In this document: piece by piece, positions 5,799 to 50,200 of the stretch
Numbering within the stretch: position 1 is the first letter of the stretch
How the letters are laid out: every line of letters starts with the position of its first letter
DNA from: Octopus vulgaris
Lineage: Eukaryota
Direction: 5' to 3'
Assembly: GCA_951406725.2 (NCBI GenBank)
Contig: OX597823.1
Location: 95,232,001-95,296,000, forward strand
DNA length: 64,000 nt
The notes under the pieces: model-generated
The model's input: the letters and a program-made list of their open reading frames with translations, nothing else
The model's database searches: none
What the model was told of the DNA's origin: nothing
Program-made: the position numbers and the translations under genes

Positions 5799-5861
5799 TA
5801 ATAACTGACGAGATGCCGGAGCAGACTACTGCCCCGACATCCGAAACTCGGAGTTTTATTA
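5799..5861 (+). ncRNA. Type I hammerhead ribozyme-like motif
   Basis: taataa-CTGACGA-gatgccggagcag(acta)ctgccccgacatc-c-GAAAC-tcgga-GTT-ttatta: 6-bp stem I, long stem II, quasi-palindromic stem III. Confidence 0.7.
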
Positions 5862-6041
5862 TGGCAACCGAATAATTGTCACATATTATATTACAGATAA
5901 ATTCCACTATTTACATAATATCGAGGTCTCATTCATTCTTTTGTTGCCATACTATTACCATTAATATATATATAACATTTATATTTCGTTTTTGGATTTG
6001 GATTGCAAGATTATTTATATGAGTTCGTGTGTTGAAGCATA

Positions 6042-6167
6042 TTCTGTTGTGTCTGGGGGGAGTAATTTTCTTTTTGTGCCTTATAATTTAACCTAACACA
6101 CTCACCGGTGAGTGCGTTAAATTACAAGGCACAAAAAGAAAATGACTCTCTCCAGACACAACAGAAA
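6042..6167. repeat. Imperfect ~125-bp foldback centred on ctcaccggtgag
   Basis: ttctgttgtgtctgg...tttttgtgcctt pairs with aaggcacaaaaag...ccagacacaacagaa. Confidence 0.8.
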
Positions 6168-6764
6168 GTAACATTATTATTTAATTAAACGCCACGCATC
6201 CACTTCCAAGTATATATATATATATATATATATATATATATGAAACACATACATGCACACCCACACACACGCCTATATGTGCACATATATATGCAACCAT
6301 ATACATATCCACACACACACACACGTACACACCCATTTGTATATATTTATGTTTTGCCTATATATGTCTGTATTTGTATGTAGCCATGTACCTACGTCTG
6401 TATTTTTGGCGTATAGATTTAGCGTGAAGTTTTTGAACGGATATATCTTTTAATTTATTAATTTATCATTATTTACACAGTTAATTATTTACCTTGGGTA
6501 TTCAGGCCTTTTCCCTTCTTCATAAGCTATTTTTGATTTTAATATGATTTTAAACTGCAATTTGTTATTTCATGCAACCGGTTATGGAAAAGACCGTTAG
6601 CTTAAAGGACTAATGAAACAAAACCATTTTCAAATGTGTATCAGTCAAAGTAATTGTATTTCTGCATATAGCTTAATCTTGCTCCATTCTAAACAAAATT
6701 GTCCGACGAACGGGAACGGGTTTTGTAATATTTTTACTGCTTTTTAATAAAGCATATTACATAA

Positions 6765-7692
6765 TTGGCCCCTTTCGTCTATGCAGACGGTCAATTTAGC
6801 TTAGAGGTCACTTAATCGAACATATCAGGGGCTCCCCTTTCTTGCAGCTTCTTTCATGGCTGATTCTTCCTATGATTGAAGTGCAGATTCTGTCACAGTA
6901 CTTGCATACCAAGAAGGTGGCTCGGCGCTCGGCATTTCTGTTGTTTTCCTTTCACCGCTGACGCTTCTCAACTTGTTAGTTTCTGTAGCAACTCTCCAGC
7001 GAAGCAGTTCCTTCCTTCACCACAGTCCTCCATGTTGTTCTGTCCTCGGCCCTCTCTTCCCAGGTGCTGACATCCACCTCACAAATGGACAAACTAGCTT
7101 TGCAAGTGTCCTTATACCTCAGTTTTGGTCTTCCTCTTGGTCTCCTGCCCTGGACCAATTCTCCATAGAGCAGTTGCTTCGGGATTCGACGGTCAGCTAT
7201 TCTCCTGATATGCCCCACCCACCTCAGTCTTCTCATACACAAGATAGCTGTCATGCTTTGAAGATTCGCCTGCACCAGCACTTCAACATTAGTGACCTTG
7301 TCGCGCCATGTTAGGCCTAAGATCTTGCGGAGGCATCTCAAATGGAAAATGCCGAGGCGCCTTTCCTGTCCGCTGTACAAGGTTCAAGTTTCAGATCCAT
7401 AGAGGAGTGTGCTGAGAACACATGCTTCATAAATCCTGATCTCTGTCTTGATGTCTAATTTCTTGTTGCTCCCTTCCAAAAGTTGTTGCTGCCTTCCCTA
7501 TCCTGACATTAATATCATCATCAAGTGAAGTAGTAGAGGAAATGGTAGACCCTAGATAGCAGACCCTGTCCACTGTCTCAAGCTCTTTGTCATCAAGATT
7601 GATGTGGCCTTTCACTGCGCCCTCGTGAGTGAGAATGACTGTCTTCTTTACACGTTTGACCAAACCGAAGGCTTTGCATGCTGATGATAGGT
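6765..7692 (-). mobile_element. RTE-clade LINE, 3' RT fragment (decayed)
   Basis: YLGS, RIGKAATTFG and RRLRWVGHIRR...IPKQLLYGEL..GRRPRGRPKLRYKD in ORFs 7427-7663 and 6976-7380. Confidence 0.88.
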
Positions 7693-46373: not shown

Positions 46374-46771
46374 TAACGACCTTAACATTAGCTTCAAGGT
46401 TCATCCAAGACTGGGACCACGGGCCATACGTCCCCTGCCCAATTCAAGATCACAACATACATGTACACTGCAACATAATTTCTTTTCCTCAACTGGCCCT
46501 GCCCTATTTAACATTGTCCCGAGGGAGATCAAAGAGGAAAAGGATCCCATCAACTTTAAACAGAGTCTGGATAGATTCCTTCAAAGAATACCAGATAAGC
46601 CACCCATAATTGGATACAACTCATCCAACAAGAACTCACTACTTGAACAAAACTTGACTTAAACAAAACTTGACTTAAACAGGATTCGAATAATCCTATC
46701 AGGTGGTGCTATTAAGTTAGACATGGCCTGGACCAATCTTTGGTCGAAACATATCTAAGTTTATCTAAGTT
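46374..46771 (+). mobile_element. CR1/L2-group LINE family B, 3' fragment
   Basis: FKVHPRLGPRAIRP...GPALFNIVP...FKQSLDRFLQRIPDKP; tail (tatctaagtt)2. Confidence 0.82.
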
Positions 46772-46869
46772 TATATATGTATATATATATATATATATGT
46801 ATATATATATATATATATATATATATATATATATATATATATATATATATGTATATATACATATATATA

Positions 46870-47126
46870 CTTTGATACTTTGATAGGTTTCGGCCATTAT
46901 TGGCCCAGGCCATGTCTAACTTAATAGCACCACCTGGTGAAGTCTTTCAAGTCAGAATTTGGGCACTATGGCCCACTCAAGTAGAGAGTTATTGTTTACA
47001 GAGACATATCCGGGTGTAGGGGGTTTATGCGGGATTTCTTGAAGGAATCTGTCCAAAGACTTCTTGAACCCTATAGGGTCAGTTTCTGTTTTAATGTGTT
47101 TTGGTGTAATGTTAAAGAGAGCGGGG
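46870..47126 (-). mobile_element. LINE family A, short 3' copy
   Basis: Near-identical to the 3' end of 44609-45759; TA arrays on both sides. Confidence 0.9.
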
Positions 47127-47261
47127 TATATATATGTATATATATATATATATATGTATATACATATATATATGTATATATATATATATATATGTATATA
47201 TATGTATGTATATATATATATATATATGTATATATATATATATATATATATATATATATAT

Positions 47262-50200
47262 GGGTGTGTGTGATTGTGTATAGAAGAATATATTAATAAA
47301 AAGAATTCCAACCTTGTCTGATTTTCACGTTTTATTTACAATCTTATAATGATATATTATAAGATAATATATTATAATTGAATAAAATAAAATGAAATAG
47401 TAGAATGTTAAATATTCATTCTGATTGAACTAGTACTTTCATGCATTGAATTCTGCAATCTTCGGGTTCATGTAGTAGTGTTGACAGTCATGCTTCACAA
47501 TTTTTGACTGTAGCAAGATGAGTGATTCTGTGCTATAAATACAGCTGGGTAGGCTCCAGAGTGCTAGGTTTTGCAAACTGTATTCTGACCAATCAGTGTG
47601 TAGTATCACTCAATTACTTAAGCTGATTGGTTGGTTGAGCTGATTGGTTTAGGCATCACGCTTTGTTGGACAGGTCAAGAGTCCTGTATCTTGACCCTGG
47701 CCGAAGCAGCAATTGTTGGGTTATTTTTAGAAATGTTGTAAATATCCTTTGTCAGAGATTTTTATATTTTTATATTTCAATTGTCATCATCATCATTGTC
47801 AGCACCTTAATTATTGTTGCTAGTGGTGATGGTGGTGGCAATAGAACTTTTAACCCTAAATAAGATAATTTTCCTGCTATCTTCGTCTTGATCACCTTTA
47901 GTATTGTTGTTGTTGTTAGTGGTCATGGTCGTAGCAGTGGAAGTAATACCTCTAAGTATTATTATTATTGCTTATTTAGCTTGGGTTCGAATTTATCAAT
48001 AAAATTCTTTTCTCTGATTTTCCTCTCGATTTCACTTGGGCTGTGTAATTTGTAGAATGGAAATATTATATATATTTTCCGACCACATGTTGCTAGGTGG
48101 TTACTCAAAGGTATCTGACGGACCTCTGGGTCTCTAATCTGTTGCCGGTGTACACGTGAGCGTTCTAATAGTGCGTTTCCCGTCTGACCTACATATATTT
48201 CTTCACAATTTGGGCATTTGATGCAGTAAATTAAATTTCTGCTTTTGCAGTTCATATTCGCGTTTGTGAATATTTTCCCGGTTTTTGTGTTTATATATTG
48301 ACCGGTATGTATGAATTGGCATGTGCCACATCGGCTATCATTGCATTTAGATACCGTGAATGTTTGGTCTTTGTTGCTGAGGTCAAATTTTGCCTTTGTT
48401 AGTAATGTTTTCAAGTTTTTAGGCTGTCTTTTACTAAGCACCATAGCTCGATCCTTGATTATGTCTTTTAATTCATTACTTTGGGCAATGATTGGTAGGT
48501 TTGCTTTGGCAATGTTGAAGATATTCTGGTGACATGGGTTGTGTGTCACTATGAATGGTATGACTTGTTCTTGTTTTCCTCTTCCTTGGGTTGTCCTAAG
48601 TTGTTGTATAGGTATTTTTATAGCCCGCTGTATGCCATTTTCTATAAGTAGAGATGGGTATTTTTGTTTGAGCAAAAATTCTCTTAGTTCTATTAGGCGT
48701 TTGTTCCTGATATTTGCATCTTCTACAATAGTACAAATTCTTCTGGCTAGGCAGTATGGGATGTTACGTTTTGTATGTGGTGGATGGCACGACTTAAAAT
48801 TTAGGTATTGATGTGTGTCTGTGTGTTTATAGTATATATCTGTGGTGATGGTGGTGTCTTTTTTAATTACCATTATATCCAGGAATGGTAATTTGGTACT
48901 ACTCATCTCCTTTGTAAATTTGAGAGATGGGTGTAGGTTGTTCAGGAGGATATTGAACTCTTCCAGAGTATTTAGAGATTCTGTCCAGATTATGAAACAG
49001 TCGTCTAGGTATCTCTTCCATGCCTTTTCAATATACTTTCTAAATCCAGTGCCATAGTTTACCTCCACCTCTTGGTAGAGTTGTTCTTCTAAGTATCCCA
49101 TTACAGAGTTGGCGTAAACGGGAGCAAACCTCGTTCCCATCGCCGTGCCTCTAATTTGGATGTAATTCTTTCCATTGAAGAAGAATGTGTTATTTTCTAG
49201 AATAAGTTTGACTGTGTCTAATATAAATGGCACTGTGAATCTGCTGGGAATCACTTCTCTATGTTTTTCTAACCAGTATTTAATCGCCTTTATTCCTAAA
49301 TCGTGTGGAATATTGGTGTAGAGGCTTACCACATCAAAACTTAGCAAAACTGAATTTGTTTCTGTTGTTTTGGGAAGATGGGACAGGAAGTCGATGTCAT
49401 CCCTGATGAAACTTGGTATGTAAGTACATAGTGGTTTCAAAACAATGTCAATAAAATTGCTTAGACGGTGTGTAGGGCATGCTGGACCAGCTATAATAGG
49501 TCTAAGTTTTAGGTCTTTTGGATGTAATAATTTTATGTACTCACTTTCTTGTTCTTTTACTGCCTGTTGAATGTTTTTTGATTTGTGTATTTTTGGTAAG
49601 CCGTAGAAGTTGCTGGGTTTTGGTTCAAAATTGGTGATGTAGTCTTTTTCATTATCCGTAAGTGAGTTGTGGTGTGTTGAAATCAGGTTGTTGATCTTTT
49701 TCATGATGTGGTGGTCTATATTTGCGGGTATTTCACAATAGAAGGTTGTATCCTTCAGTTGGTCTTCAACCAAATCCTTATAGTATTCGGTATCCATAAT
49801 AACAATTGCACCACCTTTATCTGCTTGTTTAATTATTATTGTTTGATCGTTTTGTATACGTTTACATGCAGACATCTCTGATTTGCTAATGTTTGGCCTA
49901 ACATTGGTATTGCGTCTAAGGGGAAATTTAGACAGGATATCAATGTATTGGTCAAGGTAGTTATTTCTTCCTTTTGGTGGGGTGAAATTTGATTTATTCC
50001 TTACTAGGGATTCATCAATCTCATTACTTTTGTTAGCGAAGAATTCTACAAGTCGTAATTTTCGACAGAATTTTTGGATATCCTCCTTTAATTCTTGGTG
50101 GTTGGCTGTTGGTGTAGGTGTGAATTTCAGTCCTTTTGACAGAAGTTGGATTTCATCATTGTCAAGATCTCTTTTTGATAAATTAATTATTTTAGGATCT

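What the first reader, a model, noticed from the sequence alone, without database searches (positions are those of the whole stretch)
5799..47470. Many independent hammerhead-bearing repeat families in one gene, several with C at core position 4
Seen: HHR-like motifs at 5799, 11452/43669, 11868/12586, 13826 (fragment at ~6703), 14128/14403, 24294, 34874/35209 and 47426, mostly next to TA/CA microsatellites. Three families (205-bp repeat, 13826 repeat, the PLE) read CCGANGA rather than CUGANGA, and do so in each copy present. Established: U4 is highly conserved in HHRs, and CpG decay runs CG to TG, so it would not create CCGA. Inference: an autonomous PLE plus a set of non-autonomous ribozyme elements, with a possibly functional U4C core variant that normal motif searches would overlook.
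Basis: partly seen in the sequence, partly recalled or inferred. Interest (0 to 1): 0.7.

Follow-up and report, generated by a model that had tools for sequence, protein, structure and literature searches.

The report
Off-consensus hammerhead cores in Penelope retroelements
The introns of one transporter gene hold pieces of eight repeat families with predicted self-cutting hammerhead RNAs, three of them shown to be tails of Penelope-like jumping genes, and four families have spread to thousands of copies with a changed letter in the normally fixed catalytic core, likely as weakened but still maintained ribozymes (cutting untested).

Summary
The motifs are real: 13 type I hammerhead-like sites of 8 repeat families, all in introns of an SLC22-like gene. 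Where traced, they are not separate non-autonomous elements but 3' ends (pLTRs) of 5'-truncated Penelope-like elements (PLEs): shown for three families, weak for one, inferred for four. C4 is a source-element state, not decay: 9,225 CCGA versus 4,236 CTGA and 302 CCAA matches (205-bp family); 1,215 versus 875 for the PLE scaffold, whose youngest burst (copies 98.6-100% identical, two with open ORFs) carries C4. All three C4 families have U4 sister subfamilies, so position 4 toggles U/C. U4C itself is known (viroid variant; CYGANGA descriptors). Core and stems vary less than flanks (3/59 versus 61/174 columns). Best reading: slow but selected ribozymes; cleavage untested, and copies do not pile up at the cut site. 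New variant of a known kind. Scan notes held nothing on these variants.

The parts
675..57400 (+). Host gene, SLC22/organic cation transporter-like (MFS); nine exons read by eye, all hammerhead sites intronic
   Evidence: MFS_1 E 5e-6, below cut-off, on one exon; SLC22 label from recalled sequence features
5793..5867 (+). Type I hammerhead, canonical core CUGACGA, long stems I and II, cut triplet GUU
   Evidence: 4 of 4 family hits U4
6703..6720 (+). Fragment of the 13826 family: CCGACGA and stem II, no GAAA
11345..11588 (+). 205-bp family copy (3' end of a Neptune-type PLE), minimal hammerhead with C4, core at 11456
11739..12785 (.). Inverted pair of one family; canonical core at 11923 (-), G5-to-A copy at 12591 (+)
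13826..13971 (+). 13826 family copy, C4 core at 13830, short stem II; family has C4 and U4 subfamilies
14068..14501 (.). Inverted pair with U3-A8 core (UUGAAAA) at 14162 (-) and 14406 (+)
   Evidence: variant published
24294..24329 (-). Minimal hammerhead with U at position 6 (CUGUUGA), member of a 19,362-match family; this copy also lost G16.2
34820..35309 (.). Inverted pair, canonical 5' core at 34914 (-) and 35214 (+); G12 is A in both, so likely dead copies; one relative elsewhere keeps G12
43569..43773 (-). Second 205-bp family copy, C4 core at 43699
47426..47470 (-). Hammerhead of the young PLE: CCGAAGA core at 47465, stem I UGAAC/GUUCA, palindromic stem III, cut triplet CUA
47260..50806 (-). 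5'-truncated copy of a very young PLE (4,271-bp tandem unit); RT + GIY-YIG frame 50292-47965

Best explanation
These sites are minimal type I hammerhead motifs in the 3' ends of Penelope-like retroelements (linkage shown for three families, likely for the other five), and the C4 and U6 cores are inherited source-element variants that likely act as slow but still selected ribozymes. Shown: copies share a fixed 3' end at TA runs, are cut short at varying 5' points, often form inverted pairs, and nearly all run through the predicted cut site. Inferred: two motifs pair through the palindromic stem III and cut a fraction of tandem transcripts; because reverse transcription starts 100-250 bases 3' of the ribozyme and must copy through it, only uncut or re-joined RNA gives long insertions, so a weak core costs little and may help. 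Both changes hit the U-turn (U4, A6); G8, G12 and the other core bases stay fixed.
For: PLE linkage: window PLE; L213 has an RT-GIY-YIG frame about 3 kb 5' of a C4 205-bp motif, L214 a GIY-YIG frame 5' of a U4 one, L217 a 557-codon frame and two U6 motifs. C4 as source state: 9,225 / 4,236 / 302 for CCGA / CTGA / CCAA; position 4 linked to flank markers, p to 1e-9; PLE 1,215 versus 875, 40 of 40 scored copies identical over 691 bases; 13826 family 19 C, 17 U of 36 whole cores in 70 flank-picked copies. Fourth lineage: in an unrelated scaffold with position 4 left open, 7 C, 1 A, 1 G, 91 U in the first 100 of 1,143 matches (eye count). U6: 54 of 56 flank-picked copies; position 7 needs 14 changes, position 6 three, on a flank-only tree. 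Constraint: shared minor letters in 3 of 59 core/stem columns versus 61 of 174 flank columns, p 1.4e-6; shared-to-singleton test p 0.008 for the U6 family. The columns that do vary are the tolerant ones (7, 17, loop 2). A natural U4C viroid variant keeps reduced activity.
Against: No cleavage data. Within C4 copies alone the constraint test is not significant (0 of 29 versus 11 of 111, p 0.12; shared-to-singleton p 0.18 for the whole 205-bp family). Flank columns include slippage-prone pyrimidine runs, and rows were kept by 60% identity over the motif, both of which inflate the contrast. 5' ends do not pile up at the cut site (1-2 of 70 in each of three families, rough mapping). In a type III hammerhead scan all CUGA single mutants showed low activity, and natural A6C was below 0.1 per minute. 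Naiad PLEs were reported to thrive without canonical hammerheads. The C4 change in the young PLE is too recent to show later constraint. Little compensatory pairing was seen inside any one C4 family.
Confidence: 0.62

Rival explanations
1. C4 and U6 cores are catalytically dead; the ribozyme is dispensable for these PLEs and the variants rode along with successful source elements.
For: Low activity of U-turn mutants in vitro; no pile-up of copy ends at the cut; C4-only constraint not significant; the newest 13826 subfamilies also lost the 10.1-11.1 pair; Naiads reported to lack canonical motifs.
Against: The U6 lineage kept all other core bases and stems across subfamilies whose flanks are about 70-95% alike, while position 7 changed repeatedly; uncompensated core changes recur at position 4 and as U/C only.
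Confidence: 0.2
2. The fold is kept for a job other than cutting, such as a binding site for the PLE protein, a ligation-favouring structure or a translation aid upstream of ORF1, so the U-turn is free to relax.
For: Nearly all insertions run through the cut site; in the tandem unit the motif lies 245 bases 5' of the ORF1 start; hammerheads aid translation initiation in some fungal viruses, though there cleavage-competent cores were needed.
Against: G8, G12 and the not-G rule at position 17 are kept, as expected for chemistry rather than binding alone.
Confidence: 0.13
3. The DNA variant is corrected in RNA (C-to-U editing at position 4).
For: None found; only that C4 is one deamination away from U4.
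Against: A contig of a run guessed to be RNA covers the PLE motif with no other letter at position 4 (contigs drop rare variants). It cannot explain U6, and edited RNA would insert as U4.
Confidence: 0.03

Closest known systems
[quoted passage not shown]
   Same: Type I, extra base after A9, palindromic or absent stem III, place in pLTR, solo and opposite-strand pairs, U3-A8 variant; the Acropora example is close to the 205-bp motif.
   Different: All examples I could read in Fig. S3 have U4 and A6 (their descriptor fixed these boxes); here C4 and U6 are source states of families with thousands of copies.
Natural U4C viroid hammerhead (Ambros and Flores 1998, PMC147498: not held, seen only as cited in Perreault 2011, PMC3088659, passages and section 8)
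   Same: Same substitution; reported to lower activity in vitro yet allow infectivity.
   Different: One viroid variant versus repeated U/C switches in genomic retroelement lineages; A6U is not among the variants in the passages read (A6C is).
CYGANGA descriptor hammerheads of deep-sea RNA viromes, PMC13481778 (passages only)
   Same: C/U degeneracy at position 4 is built into the search and seen in the logos.
   Different: Viral RNA, A6 fixed; no retroelement context.
Neptune-clade PLEs (Craig et al. 2021, PMC8557442, passages only)
   Same: RT followed by a C-x2-5-C-x-x-C linker and GIY-YIG, microsatellite bias, partial tandems and inverted truncated copies.
   Different: Clade not tested by a tree (the linker is shared with Nematis); core variants not mentioned in the passages seen.
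Non-LTR retrozymes (bioRxiv 10.64898/2026.07.22.740005, part 1 of 5 read)
   Same: Type I hammerheads related to PLE pLTRs.
   Different: Retrozymes are short tandem arrays; the window's copies are solo or inverted tails, and long copies carry PLE frames.

Membership tests
min-HHR of PLEs | Core C3 U4 G5 A6 N7 G8 A9 ... G12 A13 A14 (or U3-A8) | tested here: not met
   Met by four window families (one with decayed G12); not met at position 4 by three families and at position 6 by one
min-HHR of PLEs | Stems I and II pair; A15.1-U16.1; position 17 not G | tested here: met
   stem II is only 2-3 pairs in the 13826 family
min-HHR of PLEs | Palindromic stem III allowing a dimer | tested here: met
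   ACGT, AGTACT, ACCGGT, ACTC-GAGT; cofolded dimers fall below two monomers, without a shuffled control
min-HHR of PLEs | Located in the pLTR of an RT + GIY-YIG element | tested here: met
   Window PLE, 205-bp and 24294 families; weak for 13826 (one hit, E 2e-4); the other four families not tested
hammerhead ribozymes | Site-specific self-cleavage after position 17 | not testable with these tools
   No raw RNA reads listed; copy ends give no signal
Neptune-clade PLE | Cys linker between RT and GIY-YIG; microsatellite targets | tested here: met
Neptune-clade PLE | RT groups with Neptune in a phylogeny | not tested
   No reference PLE proteins were fetched
Non-LTR retrozymes | Short tandem monomers each with a hammerhead, no coding part | tested here: not met
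   No such array in the window; long copies carry PLE frames

The most novel reading that the evidence does not exclude
Octopus Penelope-like elements repeatedly evolved hammerheads with a remodelled U-turn (CCGA in at least four lineages, CUGU in a lineage of about 20,000 copies) that still cut, slowly and by selection, because the element must copy through its own cut site. The natural core is then CYGWNGA, and canonical searches miss some of the largest ribozyme families of this genome.
Probability: 0.35. Interest if true: 0.72.

Novelty: new variant of a known kind. Interest (0 to 1): 0.5.

Why it matters
What PLE hammerheads do is open. Here near-identical sister subfamilies differ at one core base (U4/C4, A6/U6), and one C4 element was active very recently with open reading frames. 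That gives ready natural pairs to ask how much cleavage a PLE needs. If U6 cores cut, a base treated as essential is replaceable in nature, and strict descriptors undercount animal hammerheads: in this genome about 30,000 exact matches (19,362 + 9,225 + 1,215) fall almost wholly outside CUGANGA.

Tried and rejected
Rfam scan: no hammerhead among the 150 matches shown of 245, which are mostly microsatellite hits to miRNA models. CpG decay as the source of U4 copies: rejected for the 205-bp family (4,236 CTGA versus 302 CCAA). One search had a pattern one place too long and sampled only copies with C 5' of the core (263 matches, C4-rich); it was replaced by a flank-picked sample, which showed far more U4. 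Copy ends at the cut site: no pile-up. Expression: no RNA holder listed on record; contigs of four runs cover the PLE motif, one crossing the cut site, which says nothing on level or ends. Per-branch counts of change were not obtained; a column tally was used instead. The flank-only tree had an unsettled bootstrap and is used only for rough change counts. Literature searches; 'hammerhead' + 'A6U' gave only a twister paper (listing seen), and CCGANGA, CUGUNGA and CUGWNGA did not occur in the one paper that one search listed. Lunse et al. 2017 on PLE hammerhead variants and Ambros and Flores 1998 are not held and could already describe such variants; the supplement of PMC9901934 was listed, not read.
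Full report
Setting. The window is G000:C10:95232001-95296000 of a 2.8-Gb animal genome; an octopus is my inference from size and repeat make-up. One SLC22-like transporter gene runs on + from 675 to about 57400, with nine exons read by eye with their splice sites. Every site of the finding is intronic.

Observation. All sites are present. They belong to eight families and fold on paper as type I hammerheads: stem I, a seven-base core, often one extra base, stem II, GAAA, a short palindromic stem III, position 17. 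A relaxed descriptor gave 10 hits in 244 kb of unselected DNA versus 1 in the reversed control. Three families read CCGA in every window copy. One reads UUGAAAA, the published U3-A8 type. The 34874/35209 pair has lost G12 and 12591 has lost G5; these look like decayed copies.

What the repeats are. The motif at 47465 lies about 500 bases 3' of an RT + GIY-YIG frame. Its 691-base 3' region is identical in 40 of 40 scored copies out of 1,297 candidates. Two tandem loci show a 4,271-base unit with open ORF1 and ORF2 and C4 in both pLTRs; the window's copy lacks the 5' part. For the 205-bp family, L213 has a PLE frame aligned without stops over residues 113-737, then 3 kb of CA-rich DNA, then the C4 motif; L214 has a GIY-YIG frame 5' of a U4 motif. 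For the 24294 family, L217 has a 557-codon RT-GIY-YIG frame and two motifs. I fetched ten long loci for this test, chosen for long shared 5' DNA; the others gave no linked frame, or frames on the other strand or of other families. For the 13826 family only one weak hit was found in 30 loci. The other four families were not traced. So these are mostly truncated PLE tails, not a separate class of non-autonomous element.

C4 is a source state. Exact matches for the 205-bp motif: CCGA 9,225, CTGA 4,236, CCAA 302, controls 0. CpG decay should give CTGA and CCAA about equally, so most U4 copies come from U4 sources. In 70 copies picked by a flank motif, 58 kept the region: 40 C, 17 U, 1 A, and position 4 is linked to flank markers. 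PLE scaffold: 1,215 matches to CCRA (first 100 all CCGA) and 875 to CTGA; the U4 copies are mostly older sisters, 73-97% alike to the young unit. 13826 family: 19 C and 17 U among 36 whole cores of 70 copies; identities suggest an order U4, C4, C4, U4, that is a gain and a return (inferred, 3 to 14 copies a group). In an unrelated scaffold with position 4 left open, the first 100 of 1,143 matches (control 27) held 91 U, 7 C, 1 A, 1 G by eye; four C4 copies form one group with 3' flanks 80-86% alike and three different letters at position 7. Position 4 thus toggles between pyrimidines in at least four lineages.

The A6U family. 19,362 matches; in the first 100, position 6 is U 96, A 3, C 1, and position 7 is U 44, A 22, C 21, G 13 (eye count). 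In 70 flank-picked copies, 56 kept the region: U6 54, A6 2. Position 7 is linked to flank markers. On a tree of flanks alone (181 rows, rough support) position 7 needs 14 changes in the U6 rows and position 6 needs 3 overall. This family and the 205-bp family are sisters, with a C-G versus G-C swap in stem I.

Constraint. Setting CpG-decay letters aside, shared minor letters (4 or more rows) occur in 1 of 29 core/stem columns versus 37 of 111 flank columns (205-bp) and 2 of 30 versus 24 of 63 (U6); together p 1.4e-6. Correcting for mutability with singletons, p is 0.008 for U6 and 0.18 for the 205-bp family; C4 copies alone give 0 of 29 versus 11 of 111, p 0.12. Twelve and 14 rows were dropped as truncated or deleted over the motif. 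So constraint is fair for U6 and only suggestive for C4.

Mechanism. Shown: fixed 3' ends at TA runs 100-250 bases past the motif, variable 5' ends, and only 1-2 of 70 copies per family beginning near the predicted cut (rough). Hence templates were uncut or re-joined. From the literature: metazoan min-HHRs cleave weakly and only as dimers; U4C lowers activity but allowed viroid infectivity; CUGA mutants are weak in vitro; the A6-N7 phosphate contacts U4. Inferred: both variants weaken the U-turn and leave the catalytic guanines, which would give slow ribozymes; slowness is cheap or useful for an element that must copy through its own cut site. Solo intronic copies would rarely dimerise, which would explain why the host gene tolerates six sense-strand sites. 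Confidence 0.62; rivals are dead passengers (0.2) and a non-cutting role (0.13).

Comparison. It works like the min-HHR of PLEs and meets their structural and positional features, but four families fail the core consensus. A6U at family scale I did not find in ten searches, but the most relevant paper (Lunse 2017) could not be read. Earlier scan notes on this genome concern permuted hammerheads, not these variants.

Verdict. Real and high-copy; new variant of a known kind; interest 0.5.

Noticed in passing
L443, L445, L446, L454-L458 and others: About 53 of the first 100 matches are one family with a canonical 5' core and stem II whose stems I and III do not fit a type I descriptor; it may be one of the permuted hammerheads noted elsewhere in this scan.
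   Followed up: no
window 28643-32764 and 59828-64000: A 4.2-kb inverted duplicate (98% alike) holding a decayed second PLE and one exon of the host gene.
   Followed up: no
L123:4798-8321: The young PLE has two overlapping frames with a run of seven A near the overlap, a possible programmed frameshift.
   Followed up: no
L213:5400-8200: The 205-bp family's full element has a 3-kb CA-rich 3' region with two GC-rich islands (about 5800-6000 and 7520-7690).
   Followed up: no
L029, L085, L284 flanks: Three more C4 hammerhead-like motifs of unrelated sequence turned up as by-catch; two were followed through.
   Followed up: partly
13826 family, L373-L442: The two youngest subfamilies replaced the 10.1-11.1 pair by A-G or A-A and keep a GNRA-type loop on a two-pair stem II.
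   Followed up: partly
window 17059-17911: Tandem array of a 34-base unit, 25 copies.
   Followed up: no
window 44608-46133, 51305-53623, 53750-57193; 9858-10870: Several LINE-type RT fragments and a Tc1/mariner-like transposase remnant.
   Followed up: no
runs X15, X16, X17: Runs labelled as three other organisms hold the PLE 3' region nearly unchanged, and one also holds a U4 sister; labels were not checked.
   Followed up: no
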